Shown: in pieces, positions 30,259 through 56,604 of the stretch
How positions within the stretch are numbered: the first letter of the stretch is position 1
How the letters are laid out: each line of letters opens with the position of its first letter
NCBI GenBank assembly: GCA_013239625.1
Contig: MU055083.1
Span: forward strand, 1,423,819 to 1,487,818
Length of the DNA: 64,000 nt
Source: Lama guanicoe
Lineage: Eukaryota
Reading direction: 5' to 3'
The notes under the pieces: generated by a model
Database searches by the model: none
Told to the model about the DNA's origin: nothing
What the model saw: only the letters and a program-made list of their open reading frames with translations
Made by a program: the position numbers and the translations under genes

Positions 30259-33200
30259 GTTGAATTGACATTTCTCTGCACTGAAGACAAGGGCTTAGAA
30301 ATTGTCCTTTAAACAATGAAAGATCTTGGATCTTTTGGATTCTTCACCCTTGAACTAGATTTCAATGACATCAAGTTAGATATAAAGTATATTAGTTCTA
30401 TTTAATGCTTATGAAACAGAGTCATTCCCTCTGATAGTTAAGATTTCTTCTGCTGACAATTTTTTCTTTCAAATACAATTAGGCAGGTAGGAAATTATCA
30501 AAAATACTTGCCATTAGAAAAATTATCTTATTTCTTGTTAACCCCTGACCTCTTATAAATTGGTAGGCTCAAGAGGCATGCATTTTACCAGTCTTGTTTT
30601 AGATTGAAGGTACTGGCCGTTTACAATATCCATTTAAAATGTTCAAATAGTTTGCAAAAGTACATACTACAAAATAGTATCGTTTCAAGATTGGAGGTCA
30701 CATTTAACATACCATACGTGATTCTTCTGTACATTTACAGAGGTTTAAAGCACACAAAATTGTGCAGATAACGTACCGAAGTCTAAACTTACATACACTC
30801 AGTTGCATACATAGCAACAAGAAACAATAAATTCTGAACAAAATAACAACCAATAATCAGCCGAATTACTATGTACACATTAGGCAGGAAGCAATTAAAC
30901 ACTGCCTAATAGAATGTCACTTAAATTACTTTTTCTATAATAAATCTGTACTCCCCCCCGCCCCCAGCCCCACACTTCTTTCCATTGCAAACATTAAAGT
31001 GATGCTGTGACCACATACACAGGAATCCCCAAACATCAGCTTTATCTCGGGGCAAGAAGGGGTACAGCAACTCAGAGTGACTTAATACAACAATTTGCCA
31101 GACTTGGTTTTTATAAATCAGCTGCTGGCTGGTGGTTACTGTGAAAGCATGTTCAGACTTTCATGCCATGGACTGAAGGAAGAGGAGCAAAGAGCATTAA
31201 CTAATAGCTTCTTAACATTTGCCACTAAGTGGCTTCTTCTAAAATTAAAAAAAAAAAGTATATATCTGGAGAGGAACGATCCTAGGATAATAATGAAAAC
31301 AACAAATCTACTTCCTTTATCCGAACAGAATATCGTCACAATCTACCTGACAGTTTAAGTAAAACCAACTGTCCTTTTGAATAACCATTTTACAAATTCA
31401 TTACTAATGGAAATAGAAGAAATAATTTAAAAAACCCCAAATATAACTACTGTGTGCAGATGTGGTGGAAAAACCAGAGANNNNNNNNNNNNNNNNNNNN
31501 NNNNNNNNNNNNNNNNNNNNNNNNNNNNNNNNNNNNNNNNNNNNNNNNNNNNNNNNNNNNNNNNNNNNNNNNNNNNNNNNNNNNNNNNNNNNNNNNNNNN
31601 NNNNNNNNNNNNNNNNNNNNGTTTTAGAGACACTACCCTTGTTGTTTGTAAGGCCGCATTAAAGTTTCGCTTAACAGTCATAAGCCGTGGGTTTGAACAT
31701 CTTAGGAGAGGTGACCAGCAAAGAAACAAGTTTTTTCCTTGTTCGCCCTACTACCTGTGACGAGGTATCATTGCTTTCCAAATAGCTCCTTTAAAAATTT
31801 GCTTAAAGGTATGACCAGGGAAAAAAAAAAGTTCAGATTTGCTTAATTGAATCATCTGGAAAAATATTTAGACTTTACAAAGTGACAATGCAGCACTTTC
31901 AATTCTCTGAGAGTGCTCTCTTGTTAATCTGACTACCCCTTCTAATTGGTATGTTATAGTTTAATACACAAATATACCAAGAGATGGACTCTCTGCTGTA
32001 GCTCAGTACTTGCAAATTTGAGATAGCCATAGAAGGATAGTATCATCTTTCCAAAAAGGATCAGTTTTAAGGAGCCAGTGAATTCTGTGTGCCGTTGACA
32101 TAACCAGGGAACTGAAATGCACTGCAAACCCCCTAACAGCTTGAGCTGATAGTTCTCCAAGAGAAAGTCAGTACATCTCGGGTGGAGCATGAAGAACGAG
32201 AAGAGCCCAAGGAGTTGGGGTTTTCTGGTATTGCCTACTTGTCTGAAATTGTTGTCTTGGAGGGAAGAGCTCAACATTCACCAGGGCGCACATTCATGTG
32301 GCAGGATAACAATGATCGAGGGGCCAGTCCTCTTTTCCACTCGTCTGGCATGATCTCCTGGCAAGGATAGGGTAGGTGTTTGCCAGGTGGCTCCTGGACA
32401 AGGTCTTTTTAGGGGAGGACAACAAGGCTTCAGTCAGTGCTTTTCATAAAGTGCTTTGGGATCCTTCAGGAATGGGGGCTGGAGGAATATTATTACTGAC
32501 TGGCTTCAACTTTCAAACCAAATGGAACTATTTTCCCCAGTGAGTTATTGCTTTGAACATTAATGAATGTTCTTAAAATGGAATGGGTCTTGTCTTTAAG
32601 TTACTGCTTCTTAAAACACCCACTCCCAGGAGTGAATGTTTTTGATTACTGTCTCCCAGGTACCCTCACCAAGGAAGAGGATGTCATAGCCTTGTAAATG
32701 GTTGACAAGCACATACATTGGTGACCTGCATTTTCCAGGCTATCCTCTTTTATGAAAAGAGAAAAATCAAATATGTCCAGCCCAACATGTACTATGTTGG
32801 CCTGGTGAACGAGACAGGCTCCTGCCTCTTCTAAGACATTGATGGGAAGCTGTATGATGATGATGGCTACACTCATGTCAGACTGTGAGCTCCCTGTGGC
32901 CCAGGAATGTTTCATACTTGATTCTTTGTTCTGTGTGGGACTTAGAATAGAGACACATATGGGAGGATCTCTGTCAGTGATTTTTGAGGGTTTCACAAAT
33001 GACAAAGGCTGGACAGTACACGTGAGACTTAAGCATGTTAGAAACATGGTGGAAAAGAAGACCTGAAACAGGCTCCCAGGCTGGACTTAAAAAGAATGAA
33101 AGACAAAAGTCCATCATATCCAAAACAAAGCCAAACCAATAAGACAAAGCAAAACAAACAAATGGACAAGAATCCTCAGACTTTGTAAAGTCTATATAAT

Positions 33201-34109
33201 GAGAAGACTGGACAAATGAATAAAGGAATGTGAATTAGAGAACACAAGTTATCTCTCAGAAGAATGTCTTAATTTAAAATAGGCTCACAAGAAGTTGCAA
33301 AGTGGAGGTATGGATGGAGGGAACCTCCTAGAACAGATAGCTAATTACTGATGATATAAAATCTACTTTTCTAAAAGGATATTGCTTGGAAAACGCATTT
33401 TTCAAACTGATTAAGTATGCTCATTGAAATCTAAGGTTCATTATTCATTTCATGGGCATACATCTCTTTTCCTCATAGAAGGTAAAAAAATTACCCAATG
33501 TCCCTAATATAAGTTAGAGGGTTTGAATTTAAGGCCATTTTACCTCATGAGTCATTATTTGGTCCAGTGTGCCAAAACATGCTGACCAAATGAGGGGCCA
33601 GAAAGGTGGGTCAGTCTGCTTTTGCTGTCTGTTGAATGCCTCCTGTCTAATTCACAGTCACAAACTTCCTTCCATGTCACGAGAAAGGTCCTGATCAGGG
33701 AATTGCTTGGTTTCTGAGTCCTTGACAATTCCAGCATCTCATCTCACAAACTCATTCAACGTATATAATCTGTCTTACAATTAGAAATAAGTAGAAACTG
33801 AGGGCAGATAACTCTGTGGCATTTTTGTTTTTAAATGGGAGTCATATGGTAAGCAATTTTAAATGACATTTCTCCCAAATTAGGCTTTTAGTTCATTATA
33901 ATCAATTAATTAGCTTAGCTACCCGTTATATGAAATCTGTATTTCCTAGCAACAAGGAGCTCTGTGATATGGGAAATCTGTTAGGTAAAAGTTGAGAAAA
34001 AGAGTTGAATTTGGCATTAGAAGCAGATAGATGATCTGTAAACTAGCCGAGTAGCCTACAGACAATGAAAAGTTGAGTATGTACCAATTCTCAATGGAAA
34101 CACTGTGAT

Positions 34110-34260
34110 CAAGGGAGTGGTTCTGGGTTCTGACCCTAACTCTGAGACTAAACTAGCTCCATGACTTTGAGTTAGTTGCTGAACCTCTCTGGGCCTTGAC
34201 TGCCTTACCTGTAAATGCAAGGACTTAGACTAATTTTATCGTCCCTTCTAGGTCTAATAC
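34110..34260 (+). mobile_element. MIR/MIR3 fragment within the predicted 3'UTR
   Basis: gaacctctctgggcctt...cctgtaaatgcaagg...cccttctaggtcta. Confidence 0.55.
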
Positions 34261-35949
34261 TCCATACACATAGAATTAACTCAGAACAGAAGAAAACTGC
34301 GTTTAAAAATCCTCCCAGGCCTGGAAAAGGAGCTGCAGTGATTCTGATCAAGATTCTTTGGGGGTGGCGGCAAGGGGGTTGGTGTTCATTGACAATAAAA
34401 TCTCTTAAAAAAATAAAGACTGAGCTCTGGGCTTTAGTTTTCTAATGACCATAGGCCATGGGCCAAATCTGTACCTTTCCACCAGGGTAATTATTTATGT
34501 TTAAATCAAATGTTTTAAAAATGGAAGGGATCGGAATAACATTGTGAACAGGGGACTTTGTATGAACTCCCATGAGGCGGAATGGTGGAACTGTGAGGAC
34601 AGGGGTAGGGCCATAAAGAGCAATATTTAACCAAAATGTCTGTGAAGCAGAAAAGGACCATTTAGAATATCAGTGAACTGAATGGGTCTTGGCTCCAGGA
34701 AAGGAGAGGGGGCTCGTGCCTTTTTTGAATATGCGGTGTGATTCCTCTTTGAGTTGGGTTTCTTGTTTGTGAGAAAGGCAGGTGGGAGGCAATGAGACCA
34801 TAGCAAGATTTTTCAGGTGTCTTTGAGCACAGCCTTGGAACCACTGGTAGGGCCTTCTAAGGAGGCCAGTGGGTCAGCTGATCTAGGGGCAAAACTGACT
34901 TTGGAAGGGTAGATTGAAAAGGGAAGGCAGCAACCCATGCTCTGGACAATGTCTCAGGTCCTGTGATGTGGGGGTGAGTAGTTGTGCTTATATCACTATA
35001 AAAACTCTGTCCCTGCCTGGCTATATTTGAAGGGCACTTTCTTGTTCTGTAACAAATCTATCACCTAAGAATCCAGAGCAGATCCATGATCATTTTCAGA
35101 GACACAACTCTTGTGGATTTACTTATTTTAGGATTGGAAAGGAAACACATTTTGGGGCATGTCTCTCTCCCTCCCCTTGTCTATAATCCAGGCTTTCACT
35201 TCACTCAGCCACCTCCTTGCACCCTGGAATAATATATGGCCCATTTTCATGCTTGAATGGGAGCTGAGTGAACAATCTTCGTAAGACAGAGCTAGAAGAG
35301 AAGCCTCCTCTACTTTTGTTTCTAGAGGTTTCCAGACAGCACTAATTGAAGGCCTGACCAAGTCCTATTTACTCAGATCAGTGCTGATGGATAAACTGGA
35401 TTTGGTGAGCTGCTGAGAACGCTGCTCTTTGGAATGACCTGGTTCAGCTGACAGGGAACCCAGGACAAGTCCACTTGACCCTGTTCCCTAGAGATGCAAC
35501 CTGGGCTGCTATCCCCCAAACTCTTCTAAAGGTTGGGAATGGAGGAAAAAATATCTTATTTCATCTTACTGTCATCTATGGAACTCCTCCCCATCAATCA
35601 TGAAATTCATGGAAAAGCCCTAAGTCAGGGGTCAGATTACACAGCCAGCTGCAGAACTGAGGGTGGCTCTTGGGGTTGCCCTACCTCAGTCACAGGTGCC
35701 ACCAACAGGGTGGCATGTTTGAACCCTTGCGTCCAGGACTCCATGTTGTCACAAAAGCCCTTCTAAGTACACCCTTTATAGGCTGAACTCGAAGTGACAC
35801 TGGCAACTCGCCTCCACTCCAACTCTGCTCCAAAAAAGAGGGCCCTGAACCGACAACCTTTGGGTTTTTAACATTCAAACCATTTGAAAATGGATGGGGA
35901 CACGGTAGGGGTAGGCTGGGAGCAGGGCGATGGAAAATGCAGGGACTTG

Positions 35950-36770
35950 CGGTGGACCGGTGGACAGTTGGTCGCGGGCCTCCCTAAAGCACGCTGCTGA
36001 GTATTTCTGACACCGGGGAGGAGGTCGGGCCATCTGGGCTCATCTCTGGGCCGCGGGGGCTGGGCAGGCCAGAGTGGCCTCTGGCCGGCGGGCTCAAGGC
36101 CGCCCAGGGCTTGGCATCCACCAGGGCCGCGGGGTAGGGCTCCACAGAGATGCGGCGCACCGCAGGCCCCGGGTCCTGGAGGCTGCCCTTCGGCTCCTCA
36201 GGGAGACTGGTGGCATGGGCCAGAGCCAAGCCCCGGGGCCCCTCGGAGGCAGGCCCCAGCTGCTCGGCCGCCCCCGGCTCCTGGGCCAGGCCGCAGGCCC
36301 GGGACAGGTGTTGCGTGTAAACGCCCTCAGACAGCGACAGCGAGTGCGCCTCGCCGCGCATGCGCAGCCAGCGGTGGTGTCGGCTGAAGCCGCCGTAGTG
36401 CGGGTGCTTGGCCGGCTTCCGCTTTCCCAGGAAGCCCAGCGGCGGCCGCGCGCCCGGCACCATCTTGGCGTGGTTCTTGGGCGGGAGGCCCGTGAGCGTC
36501 AGGCCGCGTAGGAGCTCGGCGCACGAGTGGTCGGCCTGTGGCGCCGGGATGCGACCCTGGGCGCCCTGGCCCGGCCCGGACGGAGGCTTCATGTCGTGCA
36601 CTTGCAGGACGTCGGGGGCGCTGCCGCTCAGGCCGCTTCGGGCCTGCTGGGCGATGTCGCGCGACGACAGGTAGACCAGGTCCAGGTCTCGAGGGCTCAG
36701 AGCGTCACTGGAGTCGTAGTCGCTGTCGGTGGGGAGGAAGACTTCCGAGCAGGCTTCTTCGTCTGAGCAC
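35950..36770. promoter_or_regulatory. Intragenic CpG island over the ANKFN1 terminal exon
   Basis: Very high G+C, with about 8 CpG per 60 nt at 36301-36420, against CpG-depleted flanks. Confidence 0.85.
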
Positions 36771-36780
36771 GGCTGTGAAT
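35984..36780 (-). CDS. ANKFN1: ANKFN1 terminal coding exon (long isoform C-terminus, (D)SQPCSDEEACSEVFLPT...SEILSSVL*)
   Basis: Translation matches the recalled C-terminal region of mammalian ANKFN1 (SDYDSSDALSPRDLDLVYLSS, GSAPDVLQVHD, GGFSRHHRWLR, SEILSS.L). Acceptor ...tctctggctttgcag|AT at 36781/36780, branch point CTAAC at 36805-36801, TAG stop at 35986-35984. Length 797 nt = 2 + 265 codons, fitting a phase-1 intron. Confidence 0.95.
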
Positions 36781-37234
36781 CTGCAAAGCCAGAGACTGAG
36801 GTTAGAAAACAGAGAAACCCGCAGCCAGGGCTCAAGTAGGAGCCTATGTTTGAACCCCCCTCCCCTCCCTCCCCTCTCCCCTCTGTGCCTAGAAGGGCTT
36901 GTGCGTCGTTTAATGGTCCGCTCTCGTTTCTTGAAATTCTAGTAATTTTTGAACACTTTTCCTTTTTGCATGGGCCCTGTGATTAAGTTGTGTAGTGGCT
37001 CCTGTTCTTAGCTTAGGAGAGGAAAGAGAGGAATTCTTGACAGTGCCAACCCTTGCAGTGGCAGAGGGGAAAATGGTCTCCTTTCCTCATCTGATTTTAT
37101 TATTCACTGTGCGTGTGTAGAGAGAAAACAAAACTGGATGTCATTCATTTTATTGGTACCCTGTTATTTCAGAGATGATTTTTGCATTTGATAAAGTAGT
37201 TGAAACTTAAAAGGGGGAAGAAGAGAAGGCACTT

Positions 37235-49168: not shown

Positions 49169-49382
49169 CGCTCATTGCCTTCCTTCTGTGCATCTCTGGG
49201 GATGGGGATGGGGATGGAAGACAGTCTATATGTGATGATGTGGAATTGATCTTCTTTAGGTTCTGCTCATCTGAGGGATCTATCAGCTTAGTGATGGATA
49301 AACCAGAAACTGGCTGTTTGTATCTTGCATAATGTAGAGCATCCATGATCCACCTCATTTCACGCCAGACTTCATCTATTTG
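49169..49382 (-). CDS. ANKFN1: ANKFN1 penultimate coding exon (QIDEVWREMRWIMDALHYARYKQPVSG...SPEMHRRKAMS+G)
   Basis: Acceptor ttttatttcaaag|CAA and donor AGCG|gtaagc. 214 nt = 71 codons + 1 nt; the final G joins AT of the next exon to give Asp. Peptide matches recalled ANKFN1. Confidence 0.95.
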
Positions 49383-56525: not shown

Positions 56526-56604
56526 CTGAATGAAATCTAAAACTTGCTGGTGTCTTTGTTTGGCAGCTGCAACTTCGCTGTCTGAGATTGCTTCCCTCAG
56601 GGAC
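56526..56604 (-). CDS. ANKFN1: ANKFN1 third-from-last coding exon, visible 3' part (SLREAISDSEVAAAKQRHQQVLDFIQ); 5' part and acceptor lie in the N gap 56605-56808
   Basis: Minus-strand translation matches recalled ANKFN1. Donor CAG|gtaac at 56526/56525 is phase 0, compatible with the next exon starting CAA. Missed by the ORF track. Confidence 0.92.

What the first reader, a model, noticed from the sequence alone, without database searches (positions are those of the whole stretch)
36000..36760. Terminal ANKFN1 exon looks reshaped by GC-biased gene conversion, including non-synonymous AT-to-GC changes
Seen: third codon positions are almost all G/C in the exon centre (e.g. CTG TCG TCG CGC GAC ATC GCC CAG CAG GCC; CGC GGC CTG ACG CTC ACG GGC CTC CCG CCC), while the two upstream exons use AT-rich codons (AAA CAA AGA, TTA GAT TTC ATT). 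From memory of the human protein, the differences here cluster and mostly go weak-to-strong: SSHDIAQQTL to SSRDIAQQAR, FLHSLTLTGFTP to LLRGLTLTGLPP, RIHSETQ to RMRGEAH, GIYTQHLSQ to GVYTQHLSR (H>R, T>A, F>L, S>G, T>P, I>V, Q>R). Inference: a localized recombination hotspot drove gBGC, created or strengthened a CpG island, and accelerated the tail of a clock-output/arousal-related protein in this lineage. This would mimic positive selection.
Basis: partly seen in the sequence, partly recalled or inferred. Interest (0 to 1): 0.7.

Follow-up and report, generated by a model that had tools for sequence, protein, structure and literature searches.

The report
GC-biased burst in camelid ANKFN1 tail
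The last coding exon of the sleep/arousal gene ANKFN1 is very GC-rich in this camel-family animal and has gathered about a dozen amino-acid changes that the dromedary lacks, over half of them towards G/C and at otherwise fixed positions, which is likely a side effect of recombination (GC-biased gene conversion), a known process, rather than adaptation.

Summary
The stretch is the last coding exon of ANKFN1 (minus strand, 36780-35984) in a camelid. The composition claim holds: GC3 is 227/265 against 440/823 upstream, and the exon is the window's only CpG island. The human comparison is the wrong yardstick: only 4 of the 15 quoted differences (11 of all 64) are private to this lineage. Against dromedary, with 56 other placental rows as outgroups, a real burst appears: 10 (strict) to 13 private changes against 2 in camel, and 1 against 4 upstream. 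Seven are A/T-to-G/C, at sites 77-100% conserved; four are G/C-to-A/T, all at inferred CpGs and at variable sites. That fits a gBGC episode overriding weak purifying selection in an unstructured tail. The GC-rich state looks old (all placentals are GARP-rich here), so the island was probably kept or strengthened, not created. PRDM9 looks intact. No orthologous DNA could be obtained, so the defining tests (synonymous and flanking substitutions, allele frequencies) and an independent check of the letters are missing; p-values are post hoc. Earlier scan notes report the same pattern at other loci of this genome (unchecked). A new example of a known process.

The parts
35984..36780 (-). Last coding exon of ANKFN1 long isoform (residues 884-1148 of dromedary P0001), phase-1 acceptor AG at 36782-36781, stop TAG 35986-35984; encodes a 265-aa tail with no Pfam family and no confident fold
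35821..36860 (.). CpG island over the exon (GC 0.67, CpG o/e 0.76), reaching about 100-150 bp into the 3' UTR
36659..36661 (-). H41R (CGC), private W>S; H in 52 of 54 other placental rows with a residue
36563..36565 (-). D73G (GGC), private W>S; D in 50 of 51 rows
36506..36508 (-). H92R (CGC), private W>S; H in 55 of 56 rows
36344..36364 (-). Conserved R-[MVI]-H-S-E-[TS]-Q motif read here as RMRGEAH: H142R and T145A private W>S; S143G and Q146H shared with dromedary
36053..36055 (-). S243R (CGC), private, W>S if the dromedary serine is the older camelid state (inferred)
35990..35992 (-). M264V (GTG), private W>S; M in 55 of 56 rows
36080..36550 (-). Span holding the four private S>W changes V78I (36548-50), A108V (36458-60), A191T (36209-11), G234R (36080-82); each would be a CpG transition given the window's neighbouring bases; also E82Q (S>S), R205G (direction unknown), T100P and Y212S (branch ambiguous)
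49169..49382 (-). Penultimate coding exon (control): GC3 0.45, one difference from dromedary, on the camel side
56526..56603 (-). Readable part of the preceding exon (control): GC3 0.42, no difference from dromedary

Best explanation
This is the GC- and CpG-rich last exon of ANKFN1, and it carries 10-13 amino-acid changes private to this camelid lineage, most likely because a recombination hotspot on the exon drove GC-biased gene conversion after the split from Old World camels. Shown: the composition, the excess of private changes in this exon only, and that the seven A/T-to-G/C changes sit on nearly fixed residues while the four reverse changes sit on variable ones. Inferred: mismatch repair in meiotic heteroduplex favoured G/C alleles and fixed mildly harmful changes in a weakly constrained, unstructured tail. 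Also inferred: CpG decay went on alongside or after the episode, the exon was already GC-rich in early placentals, and the bias may have begun on the camelid stem (S93G, S143G, E171A are W>S and shared with dromedary).
For: Differences from dromedary: 17/265 in this exon against 6/823 upstream. Branch length of this lineage is 0.0545 in the exon and 0.0013 upstream; dromedary is 0.0087 and 0.0058; tree-wide ratio 3.7. Private changes by a fixed rule are 10 against 2 (p=0.039), and 1 against 4 upstream; exon:upstream is 10:1 against 228:214 in the 37 other lineages (p=0.012); W>S:S>W is 6:2 against 51:98 (p=0.027). By inspection with nearer outgroups: 13 against 2 (p=0.007), 7 W>S against 0 in camel (p=0.016). 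W>S sites are 77-100% conserved and S>W sites 51-74%, with no overlap (p=0.006). Under assumed neutral mutation rates only 12-30% of such changes should be W>S (7 of 11: p=0.0001-0.02), and no non-CpG S>W change occurs. GC3 is 18-19/20 in most central blocks and 14/20 at both ends. NCG codons are 33/86 against 11/185 upstream. GARP share 0.396 is the highest of the 59 full rows. Single locus in the genome.
Against: No orthologous DNA, so synonymous and non-coding substitutions, the defining signature, are untested. The exon was picked because it looked odd, so the p-values are post hoc and mostly 0.01-0.04. With dromedary's upstream length as yardstick, 10 changes against 5.7 expected gives p=0.063. 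Aye-aye shows the same 6:2 count, though on a long branch with 8 upstream changes. Four S>W changes are also in excess over camel's two, so part of the acceleration is not GC-ward. Direction was read from amino-acid pairs, and CpG context assumes the neighbouring bases were as in the window. High GC fades within 100-200 bp of the exon, and CpG in the intron flank is ordinary (5 in 250 bp, reached by 38 of 231 background windows). The window's letters were not confirmed in a second individual (searches found no copy). Six of the seven W>S changes are A>G on the sense strand, an asymmetry gBGC does not predict (p=0.04-0.14).
Confidence: 0.6

Rival explanations
1. Relaxed purifying selection on the tail (or on the long isoform) in this lineage lets ordinary mutations fix.
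For: The tail has no Pfam family and no confident fold (mean pLDDT 50.7). It evolves 3.7 times faster than the rest in all mammals. S>W changes are also up (4 against 2).
Against: Relaxation in a 71% GC exon should give mostly S>W changes (expected W>S share 0.12-0.30 under assumed rates); 7 of 11 are W>S and non-CpG S>W is 0. The frame, stop and length are intact and 125 of 265 sites are at least 95% conserved across the other placentals.
Confidence: 0.15
2. Chance: a fast, old GC-rich exon with ordinary branch-to-branch scatter, singled out after the fact.
For: Small counts; p=0.063 on the most cautious yardstick; 1 of 37 other lineages reaches the same 6:2 count.
Against: Three partly independent features agree: rate, direction and conservation of the hit sites. 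The lineage has 7 odd residues at sites at least 93% conserved, a count reached only by the long pika, pangolin and kangaroo-rat branches.
Confidence: 0.1
3. Consensus errors or rare alleles of the sequenced animal in a GC-rich, poorly covered exon.
Against: No frameshift or stop. The changes are mostly transitions. Upstream exons show 1 private change in 772 codons. The same direction of change is seen in residues shared with dromedary.
Confidence: 0.08
4. Positive selection on the ANKFN1 tail (sleep/arousal or vestibular adaptation).
For: Changes hit conserved residues. mWAKE/ANKFN1 restrains arousal in mice (PMC10567910, abstract), and nulls have vestibular and circadian defects (PMC4488434, passages).
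Against: Selection on protein has no reason to prefer W>S codons. Three changes are the same H>R (CAC>CGC) step at unrelated places. The functionally tested parts of the protein in PMC4488434 are the ANK, FN3 and domain 2 regions; the passages seen say nothing on this tail.
Confidence: 0.07

Closest known systems
Accelerated exons with W>S-biased substitution clusters (Berglund, Pollard, Webster 2009, PMC2631073; abstract and section 25 read)
   Same: One exon accelerated on one branch, excess W>S replacement changes, mimics positive selection.
   Different: There the bias is shown on DNA, extends into flanks and is tied to male recombination maps; here only amino-acid evidence exists, on a branch of about 16 My (PMC12127551 passage).
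[quoted passage not shown] 2025, PMC12290510, abstract and sections 6 and 21 read; bioRxiv 10.64898/2026.10.02.756222, abstract only)
   Same: Non-synonymous W>S burst in a single exon with S>W changes also raised (there 6.9-fold and 2.7-fold). They count 29,845 episodes in about 70,000 rodent exons, so the kind is common.
   Different: Episodes are defined by synonymous W>S clustering, untested here; camelids are not among the taxa named; the signal here may span two branches (stem plus terminal).
PRDM9-independent hotspots at hypomethylated CpG islands (Joseph et al. 2024, PMC11161765; abstract, section 8 and supplement searches)
   Same: The site is a CpG island, PRDM9 looks intact, and coexistence of both hotspot kinds is reported as the rule.
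   Different: Germline methylation is unknown here, and four inferred CpG-decay changes argue against full hypomethylation. No camelid was found in that paper's text or its four supplementary files.

Membership tests
ANKFN1 (mWAKE/Nmf9) last coding exon | Orthology: best named hits, exon order, single locus | tested here: met
   94% to dromedary ANKFN1; 18 matches in order on one contig; one DNA match in the genome
Lineage-specific gBGC episode | Acceleration confined to one exon on this branch | tested here: met
   Protein level only: 10-13 against 2 in the exon, 1 against 4 upstream
Lineage-specific gBGC episode | W>S excess among non-synonymous changes | tested here: met
   6:2 against 51:98 (p=0.027, post hoc); 7:4 by inspection
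Lineage-specific gBGC episode | W>S changes fixed at constrained sites | tested here: met
   Site conservation 0.77-1.00 against 0.51-0.74
Lineage-specific gBGC episode | Excess of synonymous W>S substitutions on the branch (the detection criterion of Riffis et al.) | not testable with these tools
   No orthologous DNA was obtained (metagenome scans 13 and 35 empty; no reads laid)
Lineage-specific gBGC episode | Bias extends into flanking non-coding DNA | tested here: inconclusive
   Composition only: first 100 bp of 3' UTR GC 0.62 (reached by 2 of 595 background windows), intron flank CpG ordinary
Lineage-specific gBGC episode | Raised local recombination; derived G/C alleles skewed to high frequency | not testable with these tools
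   No map or population data
PRDM9-independent CpG-island hotspot | CpG island at the site | tested here: met
   1040 bp, GC 0.67, o/e 0.76
PRDM9-independent CpG-island hotspot | Germline hypomethylation | not testable with these tools
   Indirect only: C before G kept in 32/42 codon junctions against 12/79 upstream, but four inferred CpG-decay changes
PRDM9-independent CpG-island hotspot | Activity stable over successive branches | tested here: inconclusive
   Three W>S residues shared with dromedary, stem ratio 5.1 near the tree mean 3.7; dromedary terminal branch quiet
Canid-like PRDM9 loss | PRDM9 pseudogenised | tested here: not met
   KRAB-like exon (motif recalled), SSXRD, two PR/SET exons and a zinc-finger exon have open frames at G000:C9322; not every exon or splice site was checked

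The most novel reading that the evidence does not exclude
The exon is an old intragenic CpG island that has served camelids as a long-lived, PRDM9-independent recombination hotspot from the stem branch on, eroding a motif kept from turtles to humans (HSETQ to RGEAH). Together with the many similar loci noted in this genome, camelids (not found in the 52-mammal survey's text or supplements) would be among the mammals with the strongest default-hotspot use despite an intact PRDM9, with a measurable load on conserved proteins.
Probability: 0.15. Interest if true: 0.55.

Novelty: new member of a known kind. Interest (0 to 1): 0.27.

Why it matters
If true, it is one more clear case where a branch-site test would call a neural gene 'positively selected' in llamas/alpacas for a non-adaptive reason, a caution for high-altitude or behaviour scans. 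It also gives a natural test of which residues in the uncharacterised ANKFN1 tail can be lost. The process is well known and counted in the thousands of exons in other mammals, so the single locus adds little; a genome-wide camelid survey would add more.

Tried and rejected
Orthologous DNA: two scans of metagenome contigs gave 402 and 77 pattern matches and no confirmed relative. A run search listed 24 runs, 9 at share 0.75 and 6 at 1.00 for the penultimate exon, but no reads were laid, so those rows say nothing about this exon. Independent copy of the window's residues: exact look-up of the 202-aa piece was negative, and searches of near and shorter proteins gave no hit above 94% and 84-93%. 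Human as comparator: rejected, 11 of 64 differences private. Paralogue or retrocopy: rejected, single locus. PRDM9 loss: rejected. Structure: the model is low-confidence (pLDDT 50.7, pTM 0.11), so no fold search was run. Literature: 'ANKFN1' with 'biased gene conversion' 0 papers; ANKFN1 with CpG island and methylation 5 papers, none on this exon by title or abstract start; PRDM9 with camel and alpaca 2 unrelated papers; searches listed nothing on ANKFN1 evolution in camelids. ANKFN1 occurs once in the supplements of PMC12127551, in the ortholog list, and not in those of PMC7331169. Rows dropped: pig lacks the upstream part and was left out of branch lengths; residues 1-72, 204, 269-275, 370 and 757-786 were not compared for the own genome; Eschrichtius P0160 did not align and was not used.

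Full report
What it is. The minus strand holds an open frame whose last 265 codons match the C-terminus of ANKFN1, best hit dromedary at 94%. The exon starts at 36780 after a phase-1 acceptor and ends at TAG 35986-35984. The gene is a single locus: 18 matches in order on one contig, one DNA match for the exon. The animal is a camelid that differs from dromedary. I infer a South American camelid from the depth of the split (dromedary alone has 4 private changes upstream); earlier scan notes say the same, unchecked. The tail has no Pfam family and no confident fold. [quoted passage not shown]

Composition. GC3 is 227/265 against 440/823 in upstream codons and 43/97 in the two upstream exons in the window. 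Four-fold sites are 142/166 against 168/346. NCG codons are 33/86 against 11/185, and C is kept before G at 32/42 codon junctions against 12/79. A 1040-bp CpG island covers the exon, the only one in the window's N-free 500-bp windows. GC3 is 18-19/20 in most central blocks and 14/20 at both ends. The signal leaks about 100 bp into the 3' UTR (GC 0.62, 6 CpG) but little into the intron.

Whose changes. Of 64 human/window differences only 11 are private to this lineage; 17 are shared with camel or older; in 36 the window's residue is at least as common as the human one among non-simian placentals. Of the 15 differences in the quoted peptides, 4 are private, 1 ambiguous, 3 camelid, 3 older, 4 human-side. 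Dromedary is the right comparator: 17/265 differences here and 6/823 upstream. An unnamed camel-like transcript protein (P0211) agrees with dromedary at all sites but one.

Rate. On a fixed species tree of 59 mammals the branch is 0.0545 long for the exon and 0.0013 for residues 73-883; dromedary is 0.0087 and 0.0058; the tree-wide ratio is 3.7. A fixed rule on living species gives 10 private changes against 2 (p=0.039) and 1 against 4 upstream; 10:1 against 228:214 in the 37 other lineages gives p=0.012. Nearer outgroups add V78I, E82Q and S243R, making 13 against 2 (p=0.007), with T100P and Y212S unassigned. Expected counts are 3.5 (mean of both branches) or 5.7 (camel's upstream length); for 10 changes p=0.003 or 0.063, for 13 p=7e-5 or 0.006.

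Direction. Seven private changes are W>S (H41R, D73G, H92R, H142R, T145A, S243R, M264V), four S>W (V78I, A108V, A191T, G234R), one S>S and one unknown. Each S>W change would be a CpG transition given the window's neighbouring bases. Other lineages lose GC in this exon (51 W>S, 98 S>W; upstream 89 and 71), so the strict 6:2 stands out (p=0.027). The W>S changes fall on sites 77-100% conserved and the S>W changes on sites 51-74% conserved (p=0.006). That is what a fixation bias competing with purifying selection gives (Berglund 2009, section 25). With assumed mammalian mutation rates (my own values, not from a call), neutral relaxation predicts a W>S share of 0.12-0.30. All these tests are post hoc. 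Aye-aye also reaches 6:2, on a long branch.

Age of the GC-rich state. GARP share in this exon is 0.29-0.40 in all placental rows, 0.22-0.23 in two marsupials and 0.18-0.20 upstream; this lineage is highest of the full rows at 0.396, camel 0.370. With the S>W excess elsewhere, this suggests the exon was already GC/CpG-rich in early placentals. It is a protein-level proxy only. Residues shared with dromedary include three W>S (S93G, S143G, E171A) and several GC-neutral changes; the stem ratio is 5.1. The motif R-[MVI]-H-S-E-[TS]-Q dominates the 244 fetched proteins with the anchor and reads RMRGEAH here; one other row (colugo P0220) has G and A too.

Hotspot type. PRDM9 in this genome has open KRAB-like, SSXRD, PR/SET and zinc-finger exons, so a canid-like loss is not the cause. 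A passing PRDM9 hotspot and a default CpG-island hotspot both remain open. Joseph et al. report that both kinds coexist in most mammals (section 8); no camelid was found in their text or four supplementary files.

What is missing. No orthologous DNA was obtained (empty; no reads laid), so synonymous and flanking substitutions, allele frequencies and a second-individual check of the letters are untested (negative). bioRxiv supplements are closed; those of 10.64898/2026.10.02.756222 might list ANKFN1 episodes in whales, rodents or primates.

Comparison and verdict. It works like a lineage-specific gBGC episode (0.6). Three features of that kind were met at protein level, the defining synonymous test could not be run, and the flank test was inconclusive. 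Such episodes number 29,845 in one rodent study. I found no paper on ANKFN1 and gBGC. Earlier scan notes describe the same pattern at STK32A, EPC1, NR5A2, PPARGC1B and CCNY in this genome (unchecked), none at this locus. New member of a known kind; interest 0.27.

Noticed in passing
window 36797-36781 (-): A second AG 15 nt upstream of the main acceptor would add VSGFA in frame; bat and mustelid gene models (P0005, P0004, P0154, P0156, P0157) carry this insert, so a tandem alternative acceptor may be conserved.
   Followed up: partly
window 36344-36364 (-): The RxHSETQ block resembles a basophilic kinase site (R-x-x-S; motif recalled, untested); camelids and bovids lost the serine independently and this lineage also lost the next threonine.
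   Followed up: partly
window 35987-35998 (-): The C-terminus SS[MT]L is kept across vertebrates and looks like a class I PDZ-binding end (recalled, untested); here it reads SSVL, as in Rice's whale P0129.
   Followed up: no
window 35990-36661 (-): Six of seven private W>S changes are A>G on the sense strand and none is clearly T>C (104 against 83 opportunities; p=0.04-0.14); may reflect transcription-linked mutation asymmetry or chance.
   Followed up: partly
G000:C9322, L015:4776-5783 (-): PRDM9 zinc-finger exon is open with one isolated and five tandem fingers plus a cut sixth; a short array, possibly collapsed in assembly.
   Followed up: partly
L014:3400-7450: Fragmented endogenous-retrovirus-like stretch (gag-, pol- and env-like pieces in separate frames, by eye) about 7 kb downstream of PRDM9; observed only.
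   Followed up: no
window about 30500-35983 (-): The 3' UTR is probably about 5 kb: a camel-like transcript contig of 6075 bases holds about 1 kb of coding sequence; end not mapped.
   Followed up: no
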